NCBI GenBank assembly: GCA_964016885.1
Contig: OZ024742.1
Span: 352,842,001 to 352,906,000, forward strand
Reading direction: 5' to 3'
Length of the DNA: 64,000 nt
Source of the DNA: Eledone cirrhosa
Lineage: Eukaryota
Under the pieces are notes generated by a model. It saw only the letters and a list, made by a program, of their open reading frames with translations. It ran no database searches and was not told where the DNA came from. Shown in pieces: positions 4,846-34,717 of this stretch (within the stretch, counting starts at the first letter, position 1; every line of letters begins with the position of its first letter). The translations under genes and the position numbers were made by a program.

Positions 4846-5799
4846 AGTAAGGAGCCAATGCTCAGAACTGTACTGAAGGAGGGGACAGTAGGCCAGGGGA
4901 TGTCCAAGGAGGAAATAACATCAAGGAGGAAGAGCAGCCTTAAGGGAAAATCCCTTCATAGTACCTTCTTTGAGAAAACTGAATTTAGAGATCCACAGAC
5001 ATGGAACTGGTTGAGAAGAGGAGACCTCAAAAAGGCTACAGAAGGAATGCTAATGGCTGCCCAGGAGCAGGCCCTCAAAACGAAGTGGTTGAAGCACCAT
5101 ATCTACAAGGAGGAGGCTAGCCCACTGTGCAGGATCTGTGGAGAGAGAGAGGAGACTGTGGCTCACATTGTGTCCGAGTGTAAACACCTAGCCCAGACCC
5201 ACTATAAGGGCTGGAGACAAGATGTGATGGGCAGGGTGATCCACTGGCACCTGTGCAAAGTAAACAATTTACCACATTCTGAGAAATGGTATGAGCATAG
5301 GCCAGAGGCAGTGATGGAGAACAATCAGGTGAAGGTGCTGTGGGATTTTAGGATACAGACGGACAAAAAACTGGAACACAATAGACCTGACCTGGTGGTT
5401 GTGGACAAAGAAAAAAGATCGTGTCTGATTGTGGATGTGGCCTGCCCGTTCGACACGACAGTGCAAGAGAAGGAGAGGGTGAAAATTCACCGATACCAGG
5501 ACCGAAAGTGGGAGGTGAAAAGGATTTGGAACTGCCATGAAGTCAAAGTGATCCCGATTGTCATAGGCGCACTGGGGACTATCTCAAAAAGTTTCCAGGG
5601 ATGGTTAAAGGAAATCGGCCCCTTCACGCGTTTTGGAACGCTTCAAAAGGCATGCTTGCTTGGAACAGCAAGAACCCTCCGACACGTCCTGAATATCTGA
5701 GGCTGCAGGTAGTGGCTTGATATTCAATCCAACGGACTTTCCAGTTAACCAACATCAATGACTGAGATTCAAGGAATAACAACAATAATAATAATAATA
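4846..5799 (+). mobile_element. R4/Dong family B, short 5'-truncated copy (954-bp tandem unit)
   Basis: Begins at AGTAAGGAGCC; carries the same variants and tail as the 3' part of 3131-4845. Confidence 0.92.
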
Positions 5800-6746
5800 A
5801 GTAAGGAGCCAATGCTCAGAACTGTACTGAAGGAGGGGACAGTAGGCCAGGGGATGTCCAAGGAGGAAATAACATCAAGGAGGAAGAGCAGCCTTAAGGG
5901 AAAATCCCTTCATAGTACCTTCTTTGAGAAAACTGAATTTAGAGATCCACAGACATGGAACTGGTTGAGAAGAGGAGACCTCAAAAAGGCTACAGAAGGA
6001 ATGCTAATGGCTGCGCAGGAGCAGGCCCTCAAAACGAAGTGGTTGAAGCACCATATTTACAAGGAGGAGGCTAGCCCACTGTGCAGGATCTGTGGAGAGA
6101 GAGAGAAGACTGTGGCTCACATTGTGTCCGAGTGTAAACACCTAGCCCAGACCCACTATAAGGGCTGGAGACACGATGTGATGGGCAGGGTGATCCACTG
6201 GCACCTGTGCAAAGTAAACAATTTACCACATTCTGAGAAATGGTATGAGCATAGGCCAGAGGCGGTGATGGAGAACAATCAGGTGAAGGTGCTGTGGGAT
6301 TTTAGGATACAGACGGACAAAAAACTGGAACACAATAGACCTGACCTGGTGGTTGTGGACAAAGAAAAAAGATCGTGTCTGATTGTGGATGTGGCCTGCC
6401 CTTTCGACACGAGAGTGCAAGAGAAGGAGAGGGAGAAAATTAACCGATACCAGGACCTAAAGTGGGAGGTGAAAAGGATTTGGAACTGCCATGAAGTCAA
6501 AGTGATCCCGATTGTCATAGGCGCACTGGGGACTATCTCCAAAGGTTTCCAGGGATGGTTAAAGAAAATCGGCCCCTTCACGCTTTTTGGAACGCTTCAA
6601 AAGGCATGCTTGCTGGGAACAGCAAGAACCCTCCGATACGTCCTGAATATCTGAGGCTGCAGGTATTGGCTTGATATTCATTCCAACGGACTTTCCAGTT
6701 AACCAACATCAATGACTGAGATTCAAGGAATAACAACAATAATAAT
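5800..6746 (+). mobile_element. R4/Dong family B, short 5'-truncated copy
   Basis: Same 5' breakpoint as 4846, but has the variants seen in the full-length B (RHD, TRV, QDLK, TLF). Confidence 0.92.
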
Positions 6747-9700
6747 GCTTTCTTTATTAACTACAAGGGTTTACACAAACTAGACAGTAAGTACAGTACA
6801 GGATAATACAGGACGGTACGAATGGGCATTTCTGCGGCGTGTAAAAAAAACGGAGTATTTAATAAAACATAACGATGAAACATTCCCCAATAGGGCGGAG
6901 ATTTCCGAAGGATATTTGTGGAGAGGGCCTATTAAAAGGCCACAGTGACCCTGACCCCAGTTTTCCACCTTTAATTTACAGACACATATTCAGAGTAGGC
7001 CAATTCACTCGGGTCATACTTGCTTCTCTCACCCATCTTCCAACAAAATGCTGGGAAGAGAGCACTTCCCTCTCTACCCTGATTTTCCTTTTCAAATGAA
7101 AGTTGAAAAGGTTAATCTGGGCATCACCAAAGAGGTAAGTGCTCGTCTTCAGCCCTTTCAGACGTGTCCACCATTCTATCTCTTTCGCCATCGCCACCAG
7201 ACAGATAAAAACTACCTGCCCTTCCCGACTAAAGGAAGTGGGCGGGGCAATCCTGACGATGGACTCAGCTGATAGCTGGATCCGTCCTACGCGTGACAGC
7301 AGGTGATCGACATAGACCCACAAGTCAGCAACGCTCGGACACTGGACGAGTGCGTGCAGGACGGTTTCGTCGCCCTGCGCGCATCTCGGACATGCCCGGT
7401 TGACGGCACCTCCATGCCTGTAGACTTTATCCCGAACTGGCAAAGCTCCTCCGTAGCACTGCCAGGCCAGGGATTTCTGGATGTTGCCCATAGGCCAGGC
7501 GCGAAAGTCCTTACGTAGAGATTGGCTAGTTGATTTTCGTCGACGCCTAGAGTTTCTCCAAGTACGTCGTCGCTCTTCCCCTCCACTAATCCTCTATAGA
7601 ACGCCAAGGTGGAGATTCCACCGATCACATTGCCCGATTGGTCGAGGGCTGTGAGCGCCTGAAGACATTCCAGTCTCCAAGCGCTCCCTCTCGGTCTTCG
7701 CTTGACCCAGGACTGCAGCTCCGTCAAGGAGCCGAGCTGGAGAAAGACGTGTCTAGCAAACGGCGACCTCACCTGATCACTGCCGAGGAAGAGGTGGAGA
7801 TGTCGTAGCCTGACCGCGTGTCTGCGCCTCATCAGCCACAGCAAGCCCAGCCCTCCACGTAGCGGGTGTTGACAGCAAATGGACCGCCTGACGATCGGAG
7901 CGCGTCCCTTCCACACAAAGCGAAAGAGCAAACGCTCCAGCGCAGTCAGGCGGAGCTTAGGGCAAGGTACGTCTGTCAGGGGGTAGTCGATGACGGACGC
8001 GATGTACGCGTTAGCCACCTCAGCTCGACCTTTCAGGGATAGCTTCCTCTCCGCCCATTTCTGGGTGAGTGAAGCCACCATGCTCGTCACCTCGTCCCAG
8101 TTTTTGCCAGACCCCTAGCAATTTAACCGCTCCGTCACCAGCGCCCGACGACGCTGTTGGACGGCATGAACCTGCCTCTCCATGCCGGGCTGCAGGCCCA
8201 CTGACTTTTCCTAGTTGATCATTGCTCCTGTCACCGCTTCGTATTCTCTTAGTGTAGTGCCGATCGCCTCGATGTGTTTGGCGTTCGACACCACTACGGT
8301 GACATCGTCCGCATATGCTGACACGGATCTTTCGCATCCTAGTTCGCGCGGGAACCCCCTCAACGTCTCCAGTAATGATTCTAGCGTCAATACGTTCAAG
8401 AGGGTCGAGAGGGGACATCCTTGTCGGACCGAGCGCATGATGTTGAACGGTTTCGAAAGGTGACCGTTCACTCTCACCACAGAGCAGATGTCGCTGTGCA
8501 TTTCAACGATCCAGCCTCTGAAGTCGGGCCCAAAGCCAGCCGCCCTCAGGTCTGTCGCTAGGTAACGATGGTCGACCGTATCGAATGCTTTCGACTGATC
8601 TGAATTGATCAAGGGCACACTCGTGCCAGGTTCCCTAGGTACCCTCTCTACGATGTATCGCTTGAGGTGGAGGTTGTCGTGGATGGATCTGTCGGGAATG
8701 GCGCACGTCTGCGCAACTAACCAGACCACCAACGACAAGCACCGACCTCTTTGCTAGCACCTTGGCCAAAATCTTGAACTCTGTGTTTAGCAGAGTTATG
8801 GGCCTGAAATTATCTGTTATCCCCCTTGTTCGGATCCTTTCTCACAGCCCCACAGCTCCTCGGCTCACAGAGCTGGGAATTCTCCCGTTCTGTTGCCAGT
8901 TGCAGTAGACATCCGCCAAGAGGCTCCGAACAAGTCTGGCATCTGTACGTAAAGTTCATAGGGCAGACCATCCAAACCAGGGGATTTACCCCTTGTGCAG
9001 ACAGTCATTGCGTCCCGAACTTCAGCGGCTGTTATCGGCTTTGCGCAACACTCAGCCTCAGCGGCCGAGAGCCGCGGCAGTCAATCGAGGTAGACACTAA
9101 ATTCCATCCCTCGATCCAGCTCGCCGCTGCCTCCAAACAGCTGTGCGAAGTGTCGCTGTAAAACTTCACGCATTTTCCCGGGATCGAGTAGCATGCGCCC
9201 GTCATGGTCCACCGAAGACCGGATCGTGCTTTGTTGCCACGACGCGCCTTCGCCACTCGGGCCCATTAAACGACTTTCGTCCCCTCGTGTCTCAGAGCAC
9301 GCACCCTAGCTCTGACAACGCAGCCTTCGTGCTTTGCATTGAAGAATTGGTGAAGAGCCAATTTCGCCGCCAGTTCGTCGTCCGCAATGCCTTTGCTAAG
9401 CGCCTCATCTAATTTTCTAACTTATTCTCCCTCTGCTCTATTTTTCTCTATTGCTAAAGCCTTACTAAACCTAATGGACTCTATTCTAATTGCTATTTTC
9501 AGAGCAAACCACCACATGTTGTTGACGATGTCCCCCGTCAACGCCCGCTTAACTAATTCGCTAATCCTGTCTCTGTAAGCCTTGCGCGCTAGTAGGGACG
9601 CGTTTAGCTTCCAGTAGCCGGGCCCTCGTCTATGAAGCCTATCTAAGTCAAGCACACAGATCACGAATTTGTGGTCCGTGTAGCTGACTATCTTGAATTG

Positions 9701-12390
9701 TGGACAGCTTATGCTAGACCTATCTATTTCTCTACAAACTACACTATCTAGATATGATCTGGATGAGCCTATGCGATTTGTCCAAGTCCACATTGGCACA
9801 TTCGGGAAATCCAATCGGTACCTGTCAGACAGTTCAAAACGCATGAGCAGGTTGGTGATGCTCTTGCAACCTCCTCCCATTTCCTCTAATCCCACACAGT
9901 CCCAGCATGCATCTACGATCCCGTTCCAGTCGCCCACTAACATGAAAGAGTGGGAGGTTCCAAGAAAGTTCTCCAGACGCCGAAAGAAATCAGGCCGCCC
10001 TGCTCCTGTCGGGGCATAGACGGCCACTAACCTGAAAGCTTGCCCGTCTCCGCTGGTCACGTCTTGCACCACCACCTTACCTTCTGTGTCCAGGAAGATG
10101 GCCCGTATGGCGAGATCGAAACCTCTCCGAAAAAGCACAGAAACTCCTCGCCTCGATCCCGGACGGCTGGGAGATGCGTACATATCGTAGCCGCCGAAGA
10201 ACGATGCGAAGGCCCGTGCTTCGGAGATTCTGGTCTCGCTGATGGCCACTACATCTATGTTTAGTGACCTGAGGTCGTTGAGCAGGTGGTCCTGCTTCCA
10301 TGACGACCCCAACCCACTTAGATTTATGCTGCCTATTCTGAGTGAAGTCATGATGAAATGGAGTGGAAAAGATGGGAAAGACCACTTACCTTACTTTTCG
10401 TAGAAGAAGGGCAGTTTCTCCATCCTGTTCACTGCTTGTGGCCTCCTCAGGAAGGATGTCCTTATAAATCCTCCTGGAGAGTGCTTGTCGGAAGTCTCCG
10501 ATGTCTTTGCAGAATTTTTGTTTTAGTGTCATGTACGTTTTTGTGTGATGCGAGTGATTTGTATGTGTGGAGGGTGTGTGAACATTTGGGTTGTTGTGTA
10601 GTCTTTTTCTGTGATGCTAGTGTTGTGTTGGATGTAGTGTAATAATTGGTTGTTGTTCAAATTTAATGATGTGTAGTGTGTATCGTTTTGGTTGTTTGGT
10701 TTTGTTTGCGTTTGTTATGGGTTTGTTTCTGTTTCGCTTTTTGGTGACTTTTGTGGTGTAGGTGATGGTGGTGTTAGGGTTAATGATGGTGATGGTGTTC
10801 GTCTTTGGGGTGATGGGGTTGGTGATGCTGGTGTGGATGGTGGCATATCTGTCCTAACTTTTTTGTTTGATAGTTTATTTGTTTCTCTCTGTACTTTGTT
10901 TTTGGAGGGGGAAGGAAGAGAATTTTTTTCTTTTTTGGTTTCTTTTTTTCTTTTTTCCTGATACCGTTTCCCACTCCTCGTCGCCACAATCTGTCTCCAG
11001 TTGTGATAGGCCGGGGAGTGAACAATCCTCCACAGGCTTTAGTTTTGGTTGTGGCGAGGTGGATGGTGTAGGCGCTGGTGCTAGTTCTGGCGTGTTGAGT
11101 GGTGGTGGTGTTGGATTTGCTACTATTGCTGGGGTTGTTGCTGTTACAGTTGCTTCTGTTGTTGCTGCTACAATTGTTGCTGGATTCTCTGCTGCTGGTG
11201 GTGTTGATGGTTGAGTCACTGGGGTGGGTAGGAGAGGTAGCCTCAGCCTTTTAGCCTGAGGGCAGAAAGCCCTTAGGTGGGTTCCTTCACCACAGACGAC
11301 ACGCCAACGCCTTCTGCCCTCAACAATTACGGTCAGGTGTCCGTCAGTGAGGTCTATTACCCCTGGGATCTCCTCAATGCTCTTTTGGTCTGCTTGGATC
11401 AGGAGCTCCATCCCAGATCCGGACCAGTTCTCCTGCTTTTCTTTTGCTATTTCGATTATCTTGCTGTTGGCTTCGATGCCGACGAGGACGGCAGCTATTA
11501 GCCAGGGAATTTCGTTGGCCGGTGGAACCTGGGTCGCCCTGATCTTTACGAGTCTCTGGCCACAATAGCTTGGGACGAGTGTGAAGTAGTCACTTCTTAA
11601 TGGGGCCATGTAGTGTTCTCTAGCCTCCTGTGGTGTTTCAAAGAACACGTCCACGGTTTCATTCTTCTGCCCACGTCTGATGTGGGGTTTTTTTGTCCAC
11701 ACATGTCCCAAAGCTTTTTGGATTTGGGACTCGGATGCCCGTTCCACTCGGCCCTATTTTATATTAATTGTTCGATAACACACGGTGCATAGGCGCCAAT
11801 GCTCCATTTTATTAGGTGTGTTTGTGGGGGGTGAGGCTGACTCTGTACCCATCTTTCTTTGCCGTTTTTTTGGGTTCTTCTAATTCCTCCTGAATTACCT
11901 GAAATGCTTCGCACTCTTTTGCTACTCTGGCAAAACTCAGGGTGGTTTTCTTAAATTCATTGTTGCTGTTGTTGTTATCGTTATTTTTGTTATTATTAAT
12001 TTTAGTTTCAGTTGTGGTGGTGGTGGCGTCAGTGGTGTTCGGTGTGGAAGAGTTCATTTTGTTTGAATTCATTTCGATATCACGAGTTAATTTATATTTT
12101 TCTTTTGTTTCTGTTGTCGCGGTGGTGGTGGGGGTGGTGGTTATCGGGTTGGTGGTGGTGATGGCGGCTTTATCACCTGCATTCATTGGTAATGGCGGGA
12201 AATGAGTGTCTGACTGAGACGAACTTAAAATATTGCTACTGCTTATATTATTTAGTGTTGGAAAACGTAATAATATTTACAATGGTGGTGTCGGTGTGAG
12301 GTGTTAGTTTGTGAGAAACGAGTGACTCTGAGTCAGCCATGATGTTTCAAAGAAAAATGTTTGTTTGATAACTATAAAAGATTAAATGTT
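6747..12390 (-). mobile_element. Tx1-clade (L1 group) non-LTR retrotransposon, near full length, decayed
   Basis: ORF1 remnants 12340-10385 with degenerate CCHC (VVCGEGTHLRAFC). ORF2 from 10351: APE (GSINLSGL, ISETR, VYAP, GDWN, TDHK), RT (QGCPLS, YADDV), C-terminal CPRC..H..C. 3' end AATAAAGAAAGC. Frameshifts and stops; 5' boundary approximate. Confidence 0.88.
9422..10351 (-). pseudogene. Apurinic-like endonuclease domain, N-terminus of Tx1 ORF2
   Basis: 309-aa open segment with canonical APE motifs, followed by a premature stop. Confidence 0.88.
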
Positions 12391-15300
12391 GGGCTCAAAA
12401 CCACACAAGAGACCACGGCCACCCTGACCACCAGGGCAATCGCCCTCTCTCAATTTTTCCATCTCTCAAACTACAGACCTATATTCAGAGTGGTCTCGTT
12501 CACTCGGACCATTCTCGCTACATTCACCCACCTTTCAACAAACTTGCTAGAAGGCAGCACTTGCATCTCCACACCGATTTTCCTCTTCAAGTGAAACTTG
12601 AAAAAGTTAATTAGGAATTCGCCGAAGAGGAAAGTGTCTGTCTTTAACGCTTTTAACCTTGTCCACCACACAATCTCTTTCGCCATGGCCACCAGTCAGA
12701 TGAAAACCGCCTGCCTTTCCACCTCAAAGGAAGGCGGCGAGACCATCTGCACAATGGACTCAGTCGACAACCGGATCAGTCCTAAACGGGACAGCAACTG
12801 TTCGGCATAGCTCCACAAGTCAGCAATGCTCGGGCACGGAACGAGTGCGTTCACGACGATTTCGTCGTTCTGCGCGCATCTCGGACATGCTCGGCTGACG
12901 GCACCTCCGTGCCTGTAGAGCTTATTTCGAACCGGCAGCGCTCCCCGGTAGCACTGCCAGGCCAGGGATTTTTGGAAGTTATCCATAGGCCTCGGGCTGA
13001 AAGTTATCCGGAATAGAGCAAACAGCTGATCTTCTTCGACGCCCAGGATCTCTCCGAGAATGTCGTCGCAGTTCCCCTCCACTAGTCCTCAATAGAACGC
13101 GGAGGTGGATCTTCCAGCGATACTGGTGCCCAGCTGGCAGTGAGCGCCTGGAGACATTTCAGTTTCCAAGCGATATCCCTCGGTCTTTTTCTGACCCAGG
13201 ACTGCAGCTCCGTCAAGGAGACGAGCTGTGAGAAAACGTGCCTGGCAAACGGCGACCACACCTGTTCTCCATCAAGGAAGCACCAGAGATGTCGCAGCCT
13301 CAGCGCATGTTTCCGCATCATCAGCCATGACATGCCCAGTCCTCCACGCAACGGGTGTTGACAGCAGATGGATTGTCTGACCATGGGAGCGCGTCCCTTC
13401 CACAAAAAGCGGAATAGGAGGCGCTACATTTTGGTGAGAGTTGGGCTGGAGCAAGGGACGACGGTGAGGCGGTAGCAGATAACGGATCCGATGTACGCAT
13501 TCGCCACCTCCGCCCGGCCTTTCAGGGACAGATTCCTCTCGGCCTATTTCTGTGTGATGGAGGCCACCCTGCTCGTCACCTCGTTACATTTTTTCTCCAT
13601 CTGGAGGTTCGGTCCCAACCAGACCCCGAGTAATTTAACCGGTCGGTCCGTCCAACACCCCACGACGCTGTCGACGGCATGGACTTGCCTCTGCAGGTCC
13701 CGAGATGCAAGCCCACTGGCTCTTCCTGGTTTATCTTTGCTCCTCTTACCGCTTCATATTCCTTGAGAGCGGTGCCGAGCATCTGGAAGTGTCTGGTTAT
13801 CGACACCACCCCGGTAACGTTGTCAGCGTAAGCCGACTCTGATTTCCCGCATCCTAGTTATACGTACAAGAGGAACGAGAGGAGACAACCCTGGCGGACT
13901 GAGCGCATGATGCTGAATGGCTGCGACAGGTGACCGTTCACCCTCACAACTGAGCAGATGTCGCTGTACATTGCTGCGAGCCAACCCCTGAAAACGGGCC
14001 CGAAACCCGCTACCTCGAGGACCGCCGCCAGGTACCGATGGTCAGACCTATCAAATGCTTCTGGATTGATCCAAGTTGATCAGGGCCCCACCCGTGCCAG
14101 GTTCCTTAACCACCCTCTCTAAGATGTATCGCATGAAGTGGAGGTTGTCGTGTATGGATCTGTCCGGAATGGCGCATGTCTGCGCCTCTCCGACCAGACC
14201 CTTGACGACAAGCGCCAACCTCGTTGCTAACACCTTGGTTAAAATCTTGAACTCTGCGTTTAGCAGGGTTATGGGCCTGAAATTATCGATAACATCCCCC
14301 TTGGTCGGGTCTTTTCTCAGCAGCGCCAATGCTCCCCGGCTCACAAAACTGGGAATGCTCCCGTTCTGCTGCCAGTTTCAGTAGAAGTCTGCCAAGAGGT
14401 CACCGAACAAGTCTAGCATAAATGTATAAAGCACGTAGGCCAGACCATCCAAACCTGGCGATTTACCCCTTGTGCAGTTAGCCATCGCTTCCCGTATTTC
14501 ACAGGCTGTTATTGGCTTTTCGCAACACTGTGCTGCGGTCGTCGAGAGCCGAGGCAGTCCGTCGAGGTATGCACTGAAGTCCATACCTCGATCCTGGCCA
14601 CCGCCGTTCCCGAACAGTTCAACAAAGTGCTGCTGAAAAGCTTTACACGTCTGCTCGGTTCCGACAAAGACCGAATTGTGGCTTTGTTGCCACGTCGCGC
14701 CATTGCCATCCGGGCCCATTGGACGGCTTTTGTCTCCTCGTGTTTCAGAGCACGCGCTCTAGCTCTGACAATGCAGCCGTCGTGTTTTGCGTTGACGATT
14801 TGGTCGAGTGCCAATCTCGCTGCAAGCACGTCGGTTGCGATGCCTATCCTTAATGCCTCGTCTATCTTTCTGACTAGCTCTCCCTCTACTCTATTTTCCT
14901 CTATCACTACACCTTTGCTAAACCTAATCGACTCTACTTTAATTGCCCTTTTAAGGGCGAAGCACCACCTGTTGTTGACGATCGCTCCCGTCAACGCCCG
15001 CTTAACTAATACGCTAATCCGGTCTCTGTAGGCTTTGCGCTTGGGGAAAGACGCGTTCAGCTTCCAGTAACCGGGCCCTTGTCTATGAAGTCTGTCTATG
15101 TCGATCTCACAGATCACACATTTGTGGTCTGTGTAGTCGACTATTTTAAATTGTGGACAACTTATACTAGCCTTATCTAGTTCTCTGCAGAATACACTAT
15201 CGAGATACCATCTGGATGACCCGATGCGGTTTGTCCATGTCCACATTTTCACATTCGGGTGATCCAGTCGATACCTGTCAGACAATTCAAAACGTCTGAG

Positions 15301-17458
15301 CAGGTTGGTGTTGCTCTTGCACCCTCCTCCCCTATCCACTAATCCCCACACGATCCCAGCATGCATCCAAGATACCGTTCCAGTCGCCCACCAACACTAA
15401 AGAGCGGGACGTTCCCAGAAAGGTCTCTAGACGTCTGAAGAAATCTGGCCGTCCTGCACCTGTTGGGGCGTAGACAGCAACGAGCCTAAAAGCATTGCCT
15501 TCGCTGCCGGTAACGTCCAGCACTACCGACTTACCTTATGGGTCTAGGAAGATGGCCCGTATCGCGAGATCCAAGCCTCTCCGAAAAAGGACGGCGTACC
15601 CTCCCTCCGATCCTGGACGGCTGGGAGATGCGTATACATCGTAGCCGCCGAAGATCGGTGCGAAGGCTTGTGCTTCGGAGATTCTGGTTTCACTGATGGC
15701 CACCACATATATGTTTAGTGACCTGAGGTCGTTTACCCTGCTGACCCTGATTCCAAGATGACCCCATATCACGTGCATTTATACTGTCTATTCTGAGTAC
15801 GGCCATGTTGGATGAGAAACGGGGCAAGTGAGAAAGTGTCACTTACCTTGTTCGTGTAGTGAAGGGACAGTAGAACCGTCCCTTTGGCTGGTCATGGGTG
15901 TTTCTAAGAGGATGTCAGTGTATATCCTCTTTGTAACCGACCATCTGAAATCTCACACTGCGTTGGGGAATTTTTGTTTTAAAGGTTTGTACTGTTCTAT
16001 TGAGATTTCGATGATACTTCTGTTTGTCGGGAGAGTTCTTGGTGTTGGTGGGGTGTAGTAGTTTTTTTCTGTGATGTCTGTGTGCTGCTTTATATGTAGT
16101 ATGAGTTCTTTTTTGCCATGCTTATGGCTGTGTACCTTTTGGGGGGAGGGGTGATTTTGTTGCTGTTTTCTTCTTGTTGCTGTTTGGTGTTTGTGTCTTG
16201 TTGTGTTTGAGTTGTTGGTGTTTTTGGTGATGCTGGTGGTGGTGTGCTTGTTGTTGTCAGGGGTGCTTGTGGTGGTTATGGTGGTGGTGTTGCTGTAAGT
16301 TTCCTTGCTGCCTTTAAGCCTATCTGTATGCCTTCGCTTTTGGAGGGTGAATCTAAGGTTTTTTTCTTTTTTTCTTTTTTGTGGCAGACCAATTGTAACT
16401 TCACTTTCGCCTCAAACTCCATGTCGGATTCTGTGGCGTCTGGGAGGGGTACGTGCTCCATGGCTGTTGGTGGTGTTAGTGGAGCCCTCTTCAGCAATGA
16501 TCTTGCTGGTGTAGCTACTTCAAATGTAGCTATTGGTGTTGCCGCCACTGATGATGCTGCTTTAATTGACCGTGGCCTTGGTACGGGTGCTACGGACGTT
16601 GCCCTCCTACTCACCGTGGAAGGGGCTTCTTCGTTTGTTTCCTGCCCTGCTCTTGGTAGCAGCGGACCAGGTATTGGAAGGAGAGGTGCCTTCCTCGTTG
16701 TCTTTTGCAGGCAAAAGGCCCTGAGGTTACCCTTCGCCCGCAGAGATAACATTTCTGCCGTCTTCCTTCTATACTTATAGGGAGTTGGAGTCCTTCCTCG
16801 ATATCTAGGATATCTGGGATAGCGTTGATACACTCTTGGTCAGTTTGTATAAGCATTTGCATGCCTATACCTGACTAGTTCTATCTCCCTATTTTTTCTA
16901 CTTGCAGCATGGTCGTACTGTTCTCGATTCCAGCAAGGACAGACACGGCCAGCCAAGGTATGGGAACATCGGTTGAGACCTGGGTCACTTTGATGCTCAC
17001 AATTTTCTGCTGGCACTAGGAGGGCAACAAAACTATCTCCTCAATCTTTAGCGTTTCCAAAGAGTGAGACTTTGCATCCTGGGGGTGGCGAAAAGTACGT
17101 CTACTTTCTGCCTCGGGTGATGTGGGGTTTGCGTGCACAGACGCACCCCATGGCCTTTTGGATTTGAGCTTCCGTGGCTCTCTCCACCGATGTGAGATTT
17201 TGCTTACGGTGCGGTATGTCACCGTCCGTAGCAGTTGGTTCTTGAAAAAATCGGCTGGAGGTTTCAGAGAGACTCTATTTGCGCTTCTTGTCACCATGGC
17301 CCTTGCGACTGCCATCTCCTCCTCTGTGACTAAAACTGTCTCGATATTTCGGACGACGCCTGCAAAAGAAGTGGTCCCTTTTTCAACAGCACCACTACTG
17401 TTGCCGCTACTGGTCTTCCTGGTGGTGATGAGACCGCTATTACAGGTATCGGTGTCAT
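12391..17458 (-). mobile_element. Second Tx1-clade element (related subfamily), decayed
   Basis: Homologous APE/RT/CCHC fragments (15778-12471) and ORF1 remnants (CYLCG, 17458-15845); partial 3' UTR homologous to the other Tx1 copies. Confidence 0.85.
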
Positions 17459-17473
17459 TGTAATAATAATAAG

Positions 17474-20400
17474 ATAAGGGAAGAAGACGCACGTGGTGGA
17501 TAGAAGGTCATGAAATCGCTCCCGTAAGTTTTTTGATGTTTAACATATTTAAAACAATTGTAATATAACAATTCTTAGTACAAATGATACATAAAGCACC
17601 AGACCCAATTCTCAGAAAATTCGGATTCATAATATCCTGTTATATCGCTCAGATATTCAATTTTGTATTATACATGTTATATTCAAATAAAAAAAATGTT
17701 TATAAATGGAAGAAAACCCTCTCTGTCTACACTATATATAACAGCCAAATAACAGCAATTTCACCAACACCACAAACTAGATACACCACCTATCCCATCA
17801 CTCCCTGTGTACACTAAATACAACAGCCAGATAACGGCAATTTCACCACCACCACCAGCAATCCCAGCATAATAATAATAATTACTATTATTATTGTCTC
17901 AAGTTTTCTCAAAATGTTTAATTCAAATATTAAAGCAATATGTCAACACATATATTAAACATACGCGACAAACCGCATAGATACACAGATAAACAAACTA
18001 CAGGCTATTCAACAAAACTCAGTAACGACAACGCCATCAATATAGTCACCGCCGCCACCACTCCATCCATCATTGCTACCACTATCCCATCACCGCCGCC
18101 ACCACTCCTTCCTTGCTATCACCACTATTCCCCCATTACCTTCTGTTATCTTAAGAAAAGGGAAGGTGGCGGTATCATTAGACAAGGGAGAGGCTATCAA
18201 AATATATAAATAGATTGACTCCGTCCCCCTTCCCCACCAACAATAGAAAAAGCCCCAGCACCACCAACCACATAGCCAACAACAATAACAGGCAACTTCA
18301 GCAAAAAGTATATTATATTATTAATAATGTCACTCTTAAGTCACGCAATGCTCACATTAAGGAACCACTCATGATAATAACAATTTAAAAAACAACAAAA
18401 AGGAAAACCCCTTGACCAAGAATTATCGAGATGGCGGCCGGCGGGGAATAGCCGTGTCTCTAGGGGAAGACGACCCCTCTAGTCTTGGTTGATTACCCCT
18501 TGGCGGTTAAGGATAAAACGCAACAAAATAAAGTAAATGTCAAATGATAAAATCTCATACCGGATCGGCCGTCACCCGGGTCAAAAAGGGCCGCGTCCCT
18601 CAGAGAGGAACCAGACTGGTGTCGAAATATCTGCTAATGGTTCAAACCTTCCCATCACTTCGGAGCTGGAGACCTTCCTAACCGGAATAATCCTACTGTT
18701 GGCCCTTCATGCTCACCACGAAGAAATCCAAAGAAAAAGAGAGAAAAATGGTCAAGGGAAGATAATAAAGAATTCCTTGCGAAATCACTGACAACAGAAC
18801 AAATTAAAGAAAGGATCGAAAAAGTGGAGGGACTGCATGCTCAAGATGAAACTCAAAATGAAAACAATGAGATCGTAAATAATAAAGAAATGAATGAGAA
18901 TGAACTTGCCAACTTGAAGGTTGAAATTATGATCGAATGGATGAAAATTAAGTAATCTGACATGGGGGAACGAGACACCCTCTCTAAGATCCAGTACTCC
19001 AAACAGAAGCAAAAGATAATACACAAGACTAACATAATCCTCAAAAACATTATCATCACAAACAAACTAAACATTACTGATTTAAATCATCTCTATTATG
19101 CATCGGCTAAAGTCATTACTCACTTATGTGGAGTGAAAATGAAAAAAGCAAAGGAATTCACACAAGAAATCTACTTGGCCATAGAACATCAATCGCCAAA
19201 TAAACCTTCTCCGATCTGACATAGAAATGTTAACAAACTATAAAGTAGGTGAACATGTTAAACAAACTAAACTTAGAAAATTTAAAAGAAAGTACAGTAT
19301 AAAATCAACAAGTGACATGGATATGCTGATAGAAATAATCAAGAAAAAAGTGTCGGCCAAAGCTGCTCGAATAAGGCGCTTTGAAAAACGATCTAGATTC
19401 TATAAGGACAATAATATGTTCAAAAACAACCACAGGAAAATTGGTAGGTCAACAATAACTGCTAAATCAATACCACCCAAGGAGGAAGTGCAAGAATTCT
19501 GGGAAAAGATCTGGGCCGAAGAAAAAGTTCATAACATACATGCCCCATGGATAGACAGACAAATGAAAGATATAGCTCACCTTGGGGAAGAAATATGGGA
19601 AAATATAACAGTTGAACAGTTGCGCTTGGCTCTTAGAAAAACCAGCAAATGGAAATCCCCAGGAAAAAGACAAAATACTAACTTTTGGATAAATGCCTTC
19701 ACAGTGTCTCATGAGCTGTTAGCCCAACTTTATAATGAAATAGTTAAGGAGCCAGAACATATACCATCATGGCTAGTTAACGGCATTACATTCCTGCTTC
19801 CGAAGAATGATGAGACAAACAATCCCAAAAGTTACAGACCGATAACTTGCTTGACCACAATGTATACAATTTTAACATCAGTCCTAACTGAATATACATA
19901 TGACCACCTGATAACAAATGACCTATTTCCCAATGGGCAGAAAGGGTGTAAACGAGGCTCATATGGCTGTAAGGATCAGCTTTTGTTTAACAAAATGATA
20001 CTGGAAGATTGTCATAATAGACACAAACTGCTATCAATTGCTTGGATAGATTATAAAAAAGCATTCGATATTTTGCCACACAGTTGGATTGAAAAATGTT
20101 TGGAGATTTTCAAAATATCTCCCGTTGTCAGGAGGTTTTTGTCATTGAGTATGACGACATGGAAAACGACACTTCTTTTGAATATTGAAACAAAATCCCT
20201 GGAAGCTGGAGAAGTTAATATTAATTGTGGAATTTTTCAGGATGACTCTTTATCACCGCTTTTATTCTGCATCGCACTTATAAAATAAAGTAAAATGCTC
20301 AATGAAACAAAACATGGATATAAAGTCTATGACAAAACCATTAATCACTTGTTCTGCATGGATGACCTGAAACTATTTGCAAAACATGATGAACAATTGC

Positions 20401-22085
20401 AAGGGCTATTATCCACTATGGAGCATTTCGGTGATGACATTAAAATGGAGTTTGGACTAGATAAATGCGCCAAAGCAACGTTCACCAGAGGAAAGCTGCT
20501 GAACAGTTCAGACATTAATCTTGATCGGGGAATGTGATAAGAGAACTTGATCAAGAGGAAACTTACAAATATCTAGGTGTTTGTGAAGTTGACGGAATCA
20601 AGCACTTGACAATGAGGGAAAGGATAAGGAAGGAATGTTACTGCAGAGTAAGAGCAATCTTAAGAACGGAATTGAATGCAAGGAATAGGATCAATGCCAT
20701 AAACACGCTTGCCATACCAGTAGTAACCTACAGTTACAATGTCATCAACCGGTCAAGCCCAGATATACGTAGGCTCGATACAAAATTTAGAAAATTTTTA
20801 TCCATGCACAGAATGCATCATCCTAAGGCAGATACAGACAAAATATATCTCCCTAGGAAATCAGGAGCACGTGGGTTAATCCAGTTAGATATTGCGTAGA
20901 AAACTGCAACAATTGGATTATCTACATATCTCAGGGAATCACATGATTGGATGATCAAACTCGTTTTGAAACACGAAAGCATCAAAAGATCATACTCCAT
21001 TACAAAATATGCACAAAGATACAGTAATGGACTACACATTTCAGAATTCCCATTTAGTGCTGAAATGGAAAACACAGAAAAAGCAAAGCAGGTAAATGTA
21101 TCTGCAAAGAAAGAAATGCTACATAAACTGGCTAAGAAATGGGAAGAAAAGCCTCTGAATGAAAAATAGCCAGAAAGAGCTAACAATCCTGATGTTGACA
21201 AAACTTTAAACCATCAGTGGTTGGCATCCTCTGGACTGAAATCGGAGACTGAAGGACTGATTATATCAGCACAAGATCAGTGTCTGCCAACAAAAAATTA
21301 CCAAGCCAACATAATAAAAAATGGATGCAGCCCATTATGCCGTGTATGTAAAAAACAACCAGATACCATTGATCATATACTTTAAATGTGCAGTCCTATA
21401 GCTCCAACCGAATACCTAAACAGGCATGACAGAACTTCACATTGGATAATGTTTAAGCATTTTGACCTGCCCCATCAAAAAAATTGGTGGGAGCATCAAC
21501 CACCACTCAAACTTGAAAAAGATCACATCTCAATCTTGTGGAAGTTTAGCATCCAAACAGACCGAAAAATAGATGCAAGTAGACCTGATATAATACTGAA
21601 GGACTTTAAAAAGAGGGTATGCCTGCTAATTGATATGTCCGTTCCAATAGACAAGAATGTATCTATAAAAACTTTTGAAAAATTGAGCAAGTATAAGGAC
21701 CTGGAGATAGAAATTGGAAAAATATGGAAATTGAGAACTAAAACAATACAAGTGGTTGTAGGCGCTCTAGGAATGATACCTAAGGGGTCTAATGATTACT
21801 TATCGCAAAAATCCCAGGAATCCCGCGTATAGGAGAAATACAAAAGAGAGTACATATGGGAACTGCCCATATACTAAGGAAGATTCTGTCAATATATGTA
21901 CATCACAAGCCTAAACACCTAAAGATGCATTTGTGTGTATGTATGTTCTTTCTTGAACATGGCGGTCCTTGTTGTCTCTTGAGGTCACTGGTTGTGACTT
22001 GGTGATAGCTCGTGTGAACATAAAGCAAGATAAATCCAACTATAATAATAATAATAATAATAATAACAATAATAATAATAATAAT
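17474..22085 (+). mobile_element. R4/Dong family A, full-length but decayed copy
   Basis: Leader 17474-18536, ATG 18537, internal deletion near 18778, several stops and frameshifts, 3' UTR, (AAT)n tail 22043-22085. Confidence 0.92.
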
Positions 22086-23220
22086 GATTTCTTTATTAAC
22101 CAAAAGGGTTTACATAAAGTAGACATTAAGGACAGTGCAGGACAATACACGACGGTAGAAATGGGCATTTCTGCGTGTAAAGAACACAAACGGAAGATGT
22201 AACAAACAAATAACAATGAAAAATTCCCCAAAAAGGGGGGGGGGGAGTTCGGAGGGACATTTGTGGAGAAAGCCCAGTAAAAGACCACAGTGATCCTGAC
22301 GACCAAGGCAAGTGCCGTCTCCCAGTTTTCCAGCTTTAATTTACAGATACGTACTGAGAGTAGGCCCATTCACTCGGGCCATTCTTGCTCTCTCACCCAT
22401 CTTTCAACAAAATGCTGGGAAGAGAACACTTCCCTCTCTACTCTGATTTTCCTTTTCAAAAGAAATTTGAAAAAGTCAATCAGGGCATCACCGAAGAGGT
22501 AAGTGCTCGTCTTCAGCTCTTTCAAACGTGTCCACCATACTATCTCTTTCGCCATGGCCACCAGACAGATAAAAACTGCCTGCCCCTCCCGGCTAAAGGA
22601 AGAGGGCGGGGCAATCCTCACGATGGACTCAGATGATAGCCGGATCCGTCCTACACGCGACAGCAGGTGTTCGACATAAACCCACAAGTCAGCAATTTCC
22701 GGACACTGGACGAGTGCGTGCAGGACGGTTTCGTCACCCTGCGCGCATCTCGGACATGCCCGGCTGACGGCACCTCCATGCCTGTAGAGTTTATCCCGAA
22801 CTGGCAAGGCTCCTCGGTAGCACTGCCAGGCCAGAGATTTCTGGAAGTTCTCCATAGGTCCCGGCCCGAAAGTTCTTCCGAAGAGATTGGCTAGTTGATT
22901 TTCGTCGACGCCTAGAGTTTCCCCAAGTACGTCGTCGCTCTTCCCCTCCACTAATCCTATATAGAACGCCGAGGTGGAGTTTCCACCGATCACATTGCCC
23001 GATTGGTCGAGGGCTGTGAGCGCCTGAAGAAATTCCAGTCTCCAGGCGCTCCCTCTCGGTCTTCGCTTGACCCAGGACTGCAGCTCGGTCAAGGAAACGA
23101 GCTGGGGAAATACGTGTCCTGATCACCGTCGAGGAAGAGGTGGAAATGTCGTAGCCTGAGCGCATGCCTTCGCATCATCAGCCATGGCATGCCCAGCCCT
23201 CCACGTAGCGGGTGTTGACA
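22086..23220 (-). mobile_element. Tx1-clade element, 5'-truncated
   Basis: 240-aa ORF2 C-terminus close to 6976-8090; 3' end AATAAAGAAATC abuts the A tail. Confidence 0.88.
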
Positions 23221-23692
23221 ACCGCTGGAAATGATATAATGTCCAAGAAGGTAAGAAAGCTAAAGAGAAAATATGGATTGTCTTCTAGAGAAGTAATAGT
23301 TTCAACAAAAAAATCTCTAAAACAATAAGTCCAAGTAAAAGCCGAACGAATTCGGAGATTCGAGAAGCGAAACAACTTCTACAGGCAAAATAAGTTGCTC
23401 TCATCCAATGACAAGTCAATTTGTAGAGAGGCAGGGTAGAAAAAAAATAATTATTGAAGACTCAGTTGAATTGGATGCTGAAACAATAATAAAGGAACTT
23501 GAGCAGGAAGAAACCTATAAATACTTAGGGGTCAATGAGAACTTTGGCATACAGTATGCAAGTAGGAAAGAGAGGATAAGGAAAGAATGTTACAGGAGAG
23601 TACGTGCAGTTCTGAGATCAGAACTAAACGCTCGTAACAAGGTGCTAGCCATAAATTCCTTGGCAGTCTCAGTTGTCACTTATTGCTTCGGT
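23221..23692 (+). pseudogene. Fragments of another R4/Dong family
   Basis: KAERIRRFEKRNNFYRQN and TYKYLGVNE..RIRKECYRRVRAVLRSELNARNK are homologous to, but distinct from, family A; large internal deletion. Confidence 0.75.
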
Positions 23693-23711
23693 ATATATAC
23701 ATTCATATACA

Positions 23712-23970
23712 CACACGGCTTCCGAATCGATCGATCTTGCACTAAACATATCCTCACACTACTCCTCGAACAGTGCGTTGAGTCCCAGCTACTTTTGGCG
23801 GTAAATTTCATTGACTTCCAGAAGGCATTTGAGAGTGTTTATCGGAAATCACTGGAATATCGTGCCCTCGTACGGCATTACTGCAAGATTCTTCTTTATT
23901 TGAAATACCCTGTACGCAAACTCCAGCTGCTGCGTGCGAACGAAGTCCTGTATGACAGAGTAGTTTGACA
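23712..23970 (+). pseudogene. RTE-type reverse transcriptase fragment
   Basis: HGFR..RSC..HI.TL..EQ..E.Q....NFIDFQKAF.SV motif typical of RTE-clade RT. Confidence 0.65.
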
Positions 23971-23988
23971 TAATAAGAAGAATGACGA

Positions 23989-24176
23989 TTATGTCTTTCT
24001 TTCGTTTATTGAGGAGTGACGCGCTTTTCGCTATTGATCAATCAGCTCAAGGTTAGATCTGTATCGGTCTAGACCAACTCTGAAATCAGTATCTTGTTGA
24101 GCCACTTCTGATCGAACTCTGATCTGATCAATAGCGAAACGCGCCTCACTTCTCAATAAACGGAATGAAGACATAA
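23989..24176. mobile_element. MITE-like element with about 60-bp imperfect terminal inverted repeats
   Basis: TTATGTCTT..CGTTTATTGAG..TTCGCTATTGATCA mirrored by TGATCAATAGCGAA..CTCAATAAACG..AAGACATAA. Confidence 0.6.
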
Positions 24177-24199
24177 CAAAGCATCATTGTTATAATAAG

Positions 24200-24255
24200 T
24201 CCTGTACTGTCCTTACTGTCTACTTTATGTAAACCCTTGTGGTTAATAAAGAAAA
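24200..24255 (+). mobile_element. Tx1 3'-terminal stub with 15-bp target site duplication
   Basis: Matches the reverse complement of the Tx1 3' ends at 6747 and 22086; CATTGTTATAATAAG at 24185-24199 and 24256-24270. Confidence 0.85.
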
Positions 24256-24289
24256 CATTGTTATAATAAGAATGGTTATCATTGTTTTA

Positions 24290-24852
24290 TTATTATTTTT
24301 GCATTTATCTTGCTTTATGTTTATACGAGTTATCACCAAGTCACAACCAGTGACCTCAAGAGACAACAAGGTCCGCCATGTTCAAGAAAGAACACACATA
24401 TTCACACATGCATCCTTAGTGTTTAGACTTGTGATGTACTTATATTGACAGGATCTTCCTTAGTATATGGGCAGTTCCCATTAGTACTATCTTTTGTATT
24501 TCTCCTATACGCGGGTTTCCTGGGATTTGCGATAACTAGTCGTTAGACCCCTTAGGTATCATTCCCAGAGCGCCTACAACCACTGGTATTGTTTTAGTTC
24601 TCAATTTCCACATTTTTCCAATTTCTATCTCCAGGTCCTTATACTTGCTCAATTTTTCAAATGTTTTTATAGATACATTCTTGTCTATTGGAACAGACAT
24701 ATCAATTAGCAGGCATACCCTCCTTTGAAAGTCCTTCAATATTATATCAGGTCTATTTGCATCTATTTTTCGGTCTGTTTGGATGCTAAAGTTCCACAAG
24801 ATTGAGATGTGATCTTTTTCAAGTATGGGAGGTGGTTGATGCTCCCACCAAT
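24290..24852 (-). mobile_element. R4/Dong family A, short 5'-truncated copy
   Basis: Near-identical to the A 3' end; one nonsense change near 24536. Confidence 0.92.
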
Positions 24853-24960
24853 TATTATTATTATTATTATTATTGTTATTGTTATTCCTTGAATCTCAGT
24901 CATTGATGTTGGTTAACTGGAAAGTCCGTTGGATTGAATATCAAGCCACTACCTGCAGCC

Positions 24961-27900
24961 TCAGATATTCAGGACGTATCGGAGGGTTCTTGCCGTTCCA
25001 AGCAAGCATGCCTTTTGAAGCGTTCCAAAAAGCGTGAAGGGGCCGATTTTCTTTAACCATCCCTGGAAACCTTTGGAGATAGTCCCCAGTGCGCCTATGA
25101 CAATCGGGATCACTTTGACTTCATGGCAGTTCCAAATCCTTTTCACCTCCCACTTTAGGTCCTGGTATCGGTTAATTTTCTCCCTCTCCTTCTCTTGCAC
25201 TCTCGTGTCGAACGGGCAGGCCACATCCACAATCAGGCACGATCTTTTTTCTTTGTCCACAACCACCAGGTCAGGTCTATTGTGTTCCAGTTTTTTGTCC
25301 GTCTGTATCCTAAAATCCCACAGCACCTTCACCTGACTGTTCTCCATCACCGCCTCTGGCCTATGCTCATACCATTTCTCAAAATGTGGTAGATTGTTTA
25401 CTTTGCACAGGTGCCAGTGGATCACCCTGCCCATCACATCGTGTCTCCAGCCCTTATAGTGGGTCTGGGCTAGGTGTTTACACTCGGACACAATGTGAGC
25501 CACAGTCTCCTCTCTCTCTCCACAGATCCTGCACAGTGGGCTAGCCTCCTCCTTGTAGATATGGTGCTTCAACCACTTCGTTTTGAGGGCCTGCTCCTGC
25601 GCAGCCATTAGCATTCCTTCTGTAGCCTTTTTGAGGTCTCCTCTTCTCAACCAGTTCCATGTCTGTGGATCTCTAAATTCAGTTTTCTCAAAGAAGGTAC
25701 TATGAAGGGATTTTCCCTTAAGGCTGCTCTTCCTCCTTGATGTTATTTCCTCCTTGGATATCCCCTGGCCTACTGTCCCCTCCTTCAGTACAGCTCTGAG
25801 CATTGGCTCCTTACTATAGGTCACGTATTTGTATAGGTTATTTTTCTCCATCTGAACACAGTCCTCTATGCTGATAAGACCTCTTCCACCCTCAGATCTC
25901 CTTAGGTAGAGTCTATCGACATCACTCCTCTTGTGGAACATGTTGTAGATAGTCAATAGCTTCCTAGTCTTCCTATCCATTTCTTTTTGTTCAGCAACAT
26001 TCCATCTCAGAATTCCCGCACTGTACCTAATAATAGACACAGCTCGGGAATTTACTGCGCTTATGGCATTTCTGCTGTTCAGATGTGACTTCAATACGCT
26101 CCTTACTCTCCGAATGTATTCAGTTCTTAACAATTCCTTCATTTTTTTGTTCTTTATGCCATCAGCCTCCAGAACGCCCAAATACTTGTATCCTTCCTCA
26201 GAGTCAATTTCCTTTATCATCTCACCTGTTGGTATCTGGATCCCGTTACTTCTGCTCAACCTACCCCTCCTCATCACAATGACTCCACATTTACCAATAC
26301 CAAAGTGCATACATATATCACTGCTGAAAATACGGACAGTGTCAACAAGCACATCCAACTCCTTCTCACTTTTCCCGAAGAGCTTAAGATCGTCCATGAA
26401 GAGGAGGTGATTGATGGTAAGCTCTCCCCTTCCCAACTTGTATCCTGCTCTCACTTTTCGCAGCATAATGGTCAAGGGCATCAGGGCAAGGACAAACAAC
26501 AGAGGGGACAGGCTATCTCCCTGGAAGATACCTCTCTTGATCTTCACGCTTCCCAAGGATACTCCAGTTGATGTCAACTCTGTCTCCCAGGACCCCATAC
26601 TCCTGCCCAGCAACTGTCTGATGTTATCTGCCACCCTGAAGATCTCCAGGCTTTTGGTGATCCAGGAATGAGGCACCATGTCAAATGCCTTTCTGTAGTC
26701 TATCCATCCCATGGCAAGATCAGTGTGTCTCCTCCTGCAATTCCCCATTACCATCTTATCAATAAGCAACTGGTCCTTTGTACCACGTGACTTCTTTCGG
26801 CATCCTTTCTGTTCGTCCGGCAACAAGTTGTTTGTGTGGAGGTGATGGTAGATTTCCTCAGACACAATGCTCGTCAACAGTTTCCACATTACGGGCAGAC
26901 ATGTGATAGGTCTATAGTTGGTAACATCATTACCCTTGATTCGGTCTTTCATTATCAGAACTGTGGTACCTTTTGTCAACCACTCTGGCACCTCACCCGA
27001 CACCAAGCAGTCATTGAACATGGCCGTCAGCTTCGGGTGGAGGGATGTTAAATGTTTAATCCAATACCCCTGCACACCATCTGGGCCTGGTGATTTCCAG
27101 TTGGTTAGTTTTTTGGCTTGCCCCTTAAGAGTTTCAACTGTGATACTCAAATCAGTCTGTTGCTGTGCCTGCTCACCGATCTCCCTCTGTACTGTCTCAA
27201 TCCACCCTGCCTGGGCATTGTGTCTAACATCCTGCTCCCATATTCCTCTCCAGAATGTTTTAGCTTGTTCCGCCCCAGGGATCAAGTCGTTGCCTCTTTA
27301 TTTCCCCTCAAGCTGTCCAAACAGCATCTTCTGGTTGTTGTCGAACATGCGGTTCTGTTTATACTGACTGACTCTGTTCTCGTATCGCCTGATTTTGGCA
27401 CTCTTTGCTACAATGCGTTGCTTCAATTCCTCTATGATAATATTTAGCTTTTTACTCCTAGTTTTGTATTTTATTTCCAGTCTATTTTTAGTGCCTATGT
27501 TTTTTAGTGTCCCATTCAGTAGTGACTCAAGCTTTCCTATGTCATTTCTCATTTCCTCGATTTGCCCACTCAGTCGCTTCTTCCACCACCGCTCTGCTCT
27601 TTCTTGTCTGTTGTTTCCTCTCGCTTTTATACCAAGTAGTTTCCTCACCGTATTTGCTGTTGCTTTGAGGATATTGTTGCACTGGTGAAGACTCCTCGCC
27701 TCAAGGTATGGGATGACTTTGTTTACCTTAGCTGTTGTTTCTTTTAACTTTTTCCTGTCTACAAATTTTAGGTTCATAGGTCTCCCACTATCATTGTTCA
27801 ACTCATCTACCACTAAATTTAGGATGTCAACCGAATCTTGTCCTAGCCCGTCAGCATTCATCTCCTCAGTGGCCGTATCTCTGTTCCAGGTATTATTTAT

Positions 27901-33815: not shown

Positions 33816-33860
33816 TGTCTCCACTCCAGGGACAAGGCCAGCAATCACCCAGTGCATTAC
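33816..33860 (-). mobile_element. 3' stub of the SINE seen at 63.3 kb, inserted in the A leader
   Basis: Aligns with 63300-63344; absent from the other A leader (about 18320); flanked by AATAAT. Confidence 0.7.

Positions 33861-34667: not shown

Positions 34668-34670
<3 letters not shown>

Positions 34671-34717
<47 letters not shown>

What the first reader, a model, noticed from the sequence alone, without database searches (positions are those of the whole stretch)
6740..24300. Tx1-clade family that inserts into the ATT strand of Dong tails
Seen: three Tx1 3' ends (6747 -, 22086 -, 24255 +) read AATAAAGAAANC followed directly by ATTRTTAT with no poly(A). Each lies tail-to-tail with a Dong element, and the orientation flips where the Dong array flips. 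The stub at 24200-24255 has a 15-bp TSD, CATTGTTATAATAAG. Established: Tx1 elements use APE endonucleases with repeat-specific targets (e.g. TC/TTC microsatellites, snRNA, tRNA spacers). Inference: an (ATT)n-specific Tx1 exploiting targets made by an unrelated RLE element. I do not know a described example.
Basis: partly seen in the sequence, partly recalled or inferred. Interest (0 to 1): 0.75.

Follow-up and report, generated by a model that had tools for sequence, protein, structure and literature searches.

The report
ATT-microsatellite-targeting Tx1 sharing Dong's target
Thousands of copies of one jumping gene in this likely octopus genome sit in ATT repeats, which an unrelated jumping gene (Dong) enters facing the other way; the two share the repeat rather than one depending on the other's tail, and each insertion likely leaves a fresh landing site for the next.

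Summary
The three junctions and the stub's duplication are real. Genome-wide, 6,675 of 7,799 exact 3' ends run straight into ATTAT and 7 into A5. ATT is target, not only tail: 51 of 54 full-length copies have (ATT)>=3 at the 5' end, eight degenerate sites (seven genomic plus the stub) show 11-18-bp duplications starting with ATT, and two have empty paralogues. So an (ATT)n-specific Tx1-like lineage is supported. 'Exploits Dong tails' is not: 31 of 100 copies abut a Dong 3' end, 23 a Tx1 5' end, 8 a SINE, 38 other DNA. At 6747 the Dong (nearest copies ~99%, open frame) looks younger than the decayed Tx1 (~95%); Tx1 looked older in 11 of 18 pairs. Tail-to-tail geometry and the orientation flip follow from opposite polarity on one repeat, as for SART/TRAS. 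Microsatellite-specific Tx1 is known (Kibi, Koshi, crocodilian); I found no ATT-specific one in print, but Repbase and key papers were not searchable. The scan reported this system before on other DNA of this genome. Verdict: new variant of a known kind.

The parts
1..3112 (+). Dong/R4 family D1, 5'-truncated; open ORF 2-2974
3130..6728 (+). three 5'-truncated Dong family D2 copies (3130-4820, 4846-5774, 5800-6728), each followed by a short AAC/AAT tract; the last two start at the same D2 position (likely tandem duplicate)
   Evidence: 5800-6728 has 39 genomic relatives at 99-100%
6729..6746 (.). shared spacer AATAACAACAATAATAAT: D2 tail and Tx1 3' flank
6747..12398 (-). Tx1-like subfamily B copy, decayed (stops, frameshifts), lacks first ~155 nt; APE 9425-10390, RT 8214-8753, zf-RVT 6979-7593
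12399..17460 (-). second Tx1-like family (C; 75-79% to A/B), lacks ~200 nt of 3' end and part of its 5' end, fused to the B copy; other C copies also end in C|(ATT)n
17461..17472 (.). (TAA)4 spacer: 5' flank of the Tx1 block, head-to-head with a Dong 5' end
17478..22038 (+). older near-full-length D1-type Dong (stops, frameshifts; nearest copies ~94.7%)
22042..22085 (.). (AAT)~14.7 spacer
22086..23229 (-). 5'-truncated Tx1-like copy, joined without ATT to a diverged Dong-like fragment (~23230-23730, +)
24185..24270 (+). 56-bp Tx1 3' stub (24200-24255) with 13-15-bp target duplication (24185-24199, 24256-24270)
24300..35424 (-). second Dong array: D1 24300-24856, D2 24887-29740, D1 29773-34667 (intact 1,216-aa ORF 29913-33563), D2 34724-35424, separated by (ATT)n
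11959..11972 (+). empty paralogue of the site duplicated at locus L268 (ATTGTTGCTGTTGT)

Best explanation
This is a two-ORF Tx1-like LINE lineage (APE + RT + zinc knuckle; at least 7,799 copies) that sits in (ATT)n microsatellites in one fixed orientation, while two Dong/R4 families sit in the same repeat in the opposite orientation; its endonuclease likely nicks the AAT strand (5'-ATAAT^R-3') and primes reverse transcription there without copying a poly(A). Shown: junction C|ATTAT, (ATT)n on both sides, 11-18-bp duplications at degenerate sites, tandem arrays, intact 99%-identical copies. Inferred: the nicked strand and register; pairing of AUU at the RNA 3' end (likely read-through past the AATAAA) with the nicked strand; that each insertion by either clade duplicates the repeat and so leaves landing sites for both clades and for an abundant SINE. 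Tail-to-tail and head-to-head Tx1/Dong junctions and the flip at ~24 kb follow from polarity alone. Order is reciprocal: the Dong likely came second at 6747, and either order fits 22086.
For: 6,675 of 7,799 ends have NCATTAT, 199 of them NCATTATV, 142 NCATTB, 7 NNAAAAA. First 100 places on C1: 89 have >=2 perfect ATT at the 3' end; 51 of 54 full-length and 14 of 46 truncated or interrupted copies have ATT units at the 5' end (>=3 and >=2 units), background 0.75%. Unique duplications: L268 14-15, L284 18, L286 14, L295 11-13, L300 13-16, L309 11, L126 16-17, stub 13-15. Empty paralogues: L268 (window 11959-11972) and L126 (repeat seen in L198/L213). 27 of 27 D1 and 48 of 48 D2 3' ends in fetched DNA run into (AAT)3. 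3' neighbours: 31 Dong, 23 Tx1, 8 SINE, 38 other. Family C, ~75% identical, uses the same junction. Contigs of two other coded organisms show ATT repeats after the same 3' end (X4, X8). Intact ORF1 713 and ORF2 1,204 codons, stop to stop, with Exo_endo_phos, RVT_1, zf-RVT.
Against: About 19 truncated copies have neither ATT nor a duplication at the 5' end; I read them as deletions but did not prove it. Dong tails are enriched: 31 of 100 against 1 of 21 random arrays (Fisher p=0.013); against the genome-wide estimate p runs from 0.056 to 9e-10 with the array count assumed. The 100 loci are the first on one contig and include tandem neighbours and duplicates. The age test is weak: 18 of 31 pairs scored, p=0.047, indel-prone 3' UTR, unequal sampling. 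Degenerate sites were selected, so they cannot show whether ATT units are added at pure sites. No biochemical or RNA data.
Confidence: 0.8

Rival explanations
1. One reading: the Tx1 family depends on, or is steered to, (AAT)n tails laid down by Dong.
For: 31 of 100 copies abut a Dong 3' end, about twice the estimated share of Dong tails among arrays (14,789 ends against ~65,000-160,000 arrays). At 22086 the Dong is as old as or older than the Tx1 (94.7% against 95-97%). Dong looked older in 5 of 18 pairs.
Against: 69 of 100 have no Dong tail; Tx1 older in 11 of 18 pairs; at 6747 Dong ~99% and open, Tx1 ~95% and decayed; short Dong stubs lie between two tandem Tx1 copies (L117, L135, L171, L186/187); TSD sites in SINE tails, another repeat and Tx1's own ORF1.
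Confidence: 0.08
2. The (ATT)n is element-carried at both ends (RT-added tail and a 5' leader) and the target is only loosely AT-rich.
For: All 8 full-length starts found among 15 slices picked for imperfect 3' flanks have >=8 ATT units upstream, and none has the unique 3' flank duplicated directly against the element; in L299 a 17-nt duplication is parted from the element by 13 ATT units. About 19 truncated copies lack 5' ATT.
Against: In none of those 19 is the 5' flank repeated after the tail (longest match <=6 nt). All eight unique duplications begin with ATT directly after the terminal C. Two empty paralogues hold the motif. 3' neighbours are repeat-tailed elements. The 5'-leader half of this rival may still be true and is kept as the novel case.
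Confidence: 0.1
3. Passive accumulation: insertions are unspecific and survive or amplify in microsatellite-rich arrays.
For: Local tandem duplications exist (4846/5800 D2 pair; L120/121; L166-168).
Against: Base-precise junction C|ATTAT in 85.6% of ends, one polarity, and the same junction in young 99% copies and in family C.
Confidence: 0.02

Closest known systems
Microsatellite-specific Tx1 families: Kibi (TC)n, Koshi (TTC)n, crocodilian (TTCC)n/(TTTC)n (PMC4494074: outline, passages and section 15 read; PMC3812793: passages)
   Same: APE-type LINE with a microsatellite target; best named RT relative is a 'transposon TX1 149 kDa' protein (39%, 282 bits)
   Different: Target is AT-only (ATT)n; mollusc host; shares the repeat with an RLE clade. 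The figure that lists targets of other Tx1 families, and the supplement, were not held.
Dong (Bombyx), DongAg, DongBg, TAA-specific (PMC3812793 passage; the original Dong paper was not held)
   Same: Same microsatellite; D1 and D2 here are single-ORF RT + CCHC + RLE-type elements ending in (AAT)n
   Different: Dong is the co-tenant; different endonuclease class and opposite polarity
SART1Bm and TRAS1Bm (PMC7265360, passages read)
   Same: Two families enter one repeat in opposite directions; nick at T^A; short target-like RNA sequence can anneal to the nicked strand
   Different: Both are R1-clade APE elements in telomeric repeats, and SART1 has poly(A); here an APE and an RLE clade share a dispersed microsatellite and no poly(A) is copied
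Tx1L in Tx1D; Tx1-Mar with SINEU in Mariner-N4 (PMC4494074)
   Same: Tx1 elements that target another transposon, with a SINE using the same target
   Different: Those targets are unique transposon sequences; here the target is the bare repeat, whoever made it

Membership tests
L1-group non-LTR retrotransposon | ORF1 + ORF2 with N-terminal APE, RT, C-terminal zinc knuckle | tested here: met
L1-group non-LTR retrotransposon | TPRT marks: fixed 3' end, 5' truncation, variable TSD | tested here: met
   TSD 11-18 bp; 46 of 100 lack the 5' end
Tx1 clade | RT closer to Tx1 than to L1 or R2 | tested here: met
   same 481-aa region: 282 bits to a Tx1-named alligator protein, 142 to human L1 ORF2, 82 to R2
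Tx1 clade | placement inside Tx1 in an RT tree with curated references | tested here: inconclusive
   groups with an Argonauta protein (100/100), apart from the alligator/fish group (100/99); no L1, Kibi, Koshi or Tx1L rows were available
Microsatellite-specific Tx1 (Kibi/Koshi type) | over 20% of flanks in one repeat type (criterion of PMC4494074) | tested here: met
   85.6% at 3'; 51 of 54 at 5' of full-length copies
Kibi / Koshi proper | (TC)n or (TTC)n target | tested here: not met
   target is (ATT)n; ATT(CTT)n flanks occur in 7 of 30 ATTB sites, a class of 142 of 7,799
Microsatellite-specific Tx1 (Kibi/Koshi type) | endonuclease nicks the repeat in vitro | not testable with these tools
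   needs purified APE
Dong / R4 clade (co-tenant) | single ORF, RT, CCHC and PD..D-type RLE, TAA flanks | tested here: met
   1,216-aa ORF; best solved relatives R2; motifs read (motif labels recalled); 75 of 75 3' ends followed by (AAT)3
Dong / R4 clade (co-tenant) | RT tree placement in R4 | not tested

The most novel reading that the evidence does not exclude
Full-length Tx1 RNA starts inside the upstream (ATT)n and carries it as a leader that seals the 5' joint by annealing, so every full-length insertion adds new repeat. Tx1 is then a net maker of the target that it, a 124,000-copy SINE and two RLE-type Dong families all use: a self-seeding, cross-clade landing-pad system that builds 40-kb mixed arrays and much of this genome's ATT microsatellite.
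Probability: 0.35. Interest if true: 0.6.

Novelty: new variant of a known kind. Interest (0 to 1): 0.4.

Why it matters
It adds an AT-only trinucleotide to the targets of Tx1-like endonucleases and shows an APE clade and an RLE clade on one repeat from opposite strands, a convergence that I found described only within one clade (SART/TRAS). With intact 99%-identical copies of both, it offers a direct test of how two unrelated nucleases read one microsatellite, and a route by which microsatellites and multi-kilobase retroelement arrays grow in octopod-type genomes. It does not reveal a new kind of element or mechanism.

Tried and rejected
One search included 7 nt of flank in the query, so its 30 loci were not used for flank counts; flank-free patterns were used instead. 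Coupled 'twin' priming of Tx1 and Dong at one break: six truncated Tx1 join a truncated Dong head-to-head with no ATT (L099, L131, L153, L169, L176, L180), as does window 23229/23230. But 6 of ~17-19 such ends equals the share of full-length copies with a Dong upstream (18 of 54), so ordinary deletion suffices; rejected for now. Empty allele of the stub: no contig bridged it in 4 runs; no verdict. No RNA holder listed, so transcript ends were not seen. One search showed the family body in other coded organisms but no flanks. APE-region homologue search gave 3 unnamed hits; the representative search gave no names. Look-alike findings in other genomes: none. Literature: 8 searches found no ATT/TAA-specific Tx1. 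PMC13282606 (passages) lists active Dong-R4 and L1-Tx1 families in Octopus vulgaris and has no occurrence of 'target'. PMC4640811, PMC8869645, PMC3747384: passages, nothing on this. Not held: PMC88784, PMC390292, PMC309301, the supplement of PMC4494074; Kojima and Fujiwara 2004 and Repbase were not seen. Dropped rows: age test 13 of 31 pairs (11 without exact Dong end, 1 too short, 1 too few relatives); TSD set 34 of 60 loci had the 5' end beyond 1.5 kb and 10 of the other 26 were internal deletions by eye; 7 of 15 slices held no 5' start; 5 of 20 planned slices were not fetched.

Full report
Observation. All three junctions are as described. The stub 24200-24255 has a 15-nt direct repeat, of which one base at each end could belong to the element (13-15 bp). 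It lies ~30 nt beyond the Dong 3' end, in degenerate flank. The region is a mixed array: Dong families D1 and D2 on + and Tx1-like copies on - from at least 17.3 kb upstream of the window to ~23.7 kb, then a second array of reversed polarity from 24.2 to 35.4 kb. The block 6747-17460 is a decayed subfamily B copy fused at 12398/12399 to a copy of a second family, C, with loss of the spacer and ends between them.

Identity. Intact genomic copies (e.g. L184) are ~6.0 kb with ORF1 of 713 and ORF2 of 1,204 codons stop to stop, 99% identical to each other. ORF2 has Exo_endo_phos, RVT_1 and zf-RVT. Its RT region scores 282 bits to a protein named 'transposon TX1 149 kDa', 142 to human L1 ORF2 and 82 to R2; the closest named relative is from Argonauta hians (73%), so the host is likely an octopod. 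A tree without curated references could not place it formally. Subfamilies A and B share ORF2 (~95%) but differ in the 5' 2.2 kb. D1 has one 1,216-aa ORF with RT and a C-terminal CCHC/RLE-type region, nearest solved relatives R2.

Target or tail. A flank-free 25-mer of the 3' end occurs 7,799 times; 6,675 continue NCATTAT, 142 NCATT plus non-A, 7 NNAAAAA. I fetched 9 kb round the first 100 places. Of 54 full-length copies, 51 have >=3 perfect ATT directly upstream and three have degenerate ones; of 46 truncated or interrupted copies, 14 have >=2 (background 0.75%). At degenerate sites the duplication can be read: of 60 loci picked for imperfect flanks, 26 had a 5' boundary within reach, 10 of these were internal deletions, and six gave clean 11-18-bp duplications that begin with ATT right after the terminal C (L268 and L284 read by eye). 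L126 adds one and the stub another. L268 sits in another copy's ORF1, and the empty form is at window 11959-11972; L126 sits in a repeat whose empty form appears in L198 and L213. For 19 truncated copies without 5' ATT, no duplication follows the tail (<=6 nt), which argues against 'random site plus added tail'; deletion is my inference. Family C ends in the same C|(ATT)n in nearly all of 29 copies shown, and contigs of two other coded organisms show ATT repeats after the same end.

Dong dependence. 3' neighbours of the 100: Dong 3' end 31 (20 D2, 11 D1), Tx1 5' end 23, SINE 5' end 8, other 38. 5' neighbours of the 54 full-length copies: Dong 5' part 18, Tx1 3' end 18, SINE 3' end 7, other 11; 12 of those 18 have no Dong tail on the other side. 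Sixty random 10-kb stretches held 21 arrays of >=5 units, one beside a Dong tail. With 4,797 D1 and 9,992 D2 ends, Dong tails are about 9-23% of arrays, so 31% is an enrichment of about two-fold. The sample is one contig with tandem neighbours. Order: in 18 scored tail-to-tail pairs the Tx1 was the more diverged in 11, the Dong in 5, tied in 2 (p=0.047, weak). At 6747 the Tx1 has nearest copies of 95% in ORF2 (88% in the 3' 361 nt among 40 scored) with stops and frameshifts, whereas the adjoining D2 has relatives at 99-100% and an open frame: the Dong likely came second. At 22086 either order fits. Short Dong stubs between tandem Tx1 copies point the same way. All 75 Dong 3' ends in fetched DNA run into (AAT)3, so opposite polarity alone gives tail-to-tail junctions and the flip.

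Mechanism. By established TPRT geometry, a 3' junction C|ATTAT means a first nick on the AAT strand, 5'-ATAAT^R-3', with register uncertain by up to 3 nt if the RNA ends in AUU. The AATAAA lies 7 nt before the end, so cleavage and polyadenylation would fall inside the downstream repeat; priming by AUU annealing would explain why no poly(A) is copied (inferred; annealing of short target-like RNA is discussed for SART1Bm in PMC7265360, passages). Second-strand cleavage 11-18 nt away gives the duplication. Each insertion leaves repeat on both sides, which explains ~6-kb-spaced tandems (22 of 99 successive places lie under 8 kb apart) and mixed arrays.

An asymmetry. Unique duplications touch the element only in truncated copies. 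Of 15 slices taken where the 5' end of long copies with imperfect 3' flanks should lie, 8 held a full-length start, and all 8 had >=8 ATT units upstream; in L299 a 17-nt unique duplication is parted from the element by 13 units, against 8 at the target. This suggests an (ATT)n leader on the full-length RNA and an annealed 5' joint (a precedent in R2 is recalled from a title in the reference list of PMC4494074; the paper was not held). Later slippage, later upstream insertions and my selection are alternatives, hence probability 0.35.

Comparison. It works like Kibi/Koshi and the crocodilian (TTCC/TTTC)n families (PMC4494074, PMC3812793) and, in sharing a repeat in opposite directions, like SART/TRAS (PMC7265360). 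It is not Kibi or Koshi. Eight searches found no ATT- or TAA-specific Tx1, but the figure labels and supplement of PMC4494074, Kojima and Fujiwara 2004 and Repbase could not be seen and may hold one. At least eight earlier reports of this scan describe the same system elsewhere in this genome; they are not independent evidence. Verdict: real target specificity, shared rather than Dong-derived; new variant of a known kind; interest 0.4.

Noticed in passing
genome-wide; e.g. L091, L134, L309 flanks: A SINE-like element with 124,398 exact 3' ends reading ...CCTTGTGMCWAAAGTAGAAACA|ATTAT resembles the Tx1 3' end (...CCTTGTGGTTAATAAAGAAANC|ATTAT); both fold as a short hairpin in one MFE run without control. 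Likely Tx1-mobilised and a large source of ATT tracts.
   Followed up: partly
L252, L267, L272, L273, L274, L276, L279; 5' flanks of L105, L114, L116, L165: ATT(CTT)n compound flanks recur; where the 5' end was seen it has pure (ATT)n with no CTT duplicated. May reflect a sister (CTT)n-targeting family or flap removal.
   Followed up: partly
window 23229/23230; L099, L131, L153, L169, L176, L180: Truncated Tx1 joined head-to-head to truncated Dong without ATT, with 0-6 nt microhomology or filler.
   Followed up: partly
L255, L266, L277, L268: Tx1 3' ends running into ATT-like motifs inside another Tx1 copy (3' UTR, ORF1): self-insertion at degenerate sites.
   Followed up: partly
window 23989-24176: ~190-bp imperfect palindrome (MITE-like, high copy in contig runs) just left of the stub.
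   Followed up: no
window 17478-18779 and 29740-28900: Dong D1 and D2 5' leaders are alike (~74%) and hold internal repeats; the 17478 copy has a leader only 74% like D1 on a 93% D1 body.
   Followed up: no
L184 ORF1 (P0002): 713-codon ORF1 has one CX2CX4HX4C knuckle and low-complexity S/N and P/T tracts; no Pfam family above cut-off. Subfamilies A and B have different ORF1/5' regions on a shared ORF2.
   Followed up: no
window 43600-44072 and 55083-55483: Two related minisatellite blocks (17-bp and 39-bp units) outside the finding.
   Followed up: no
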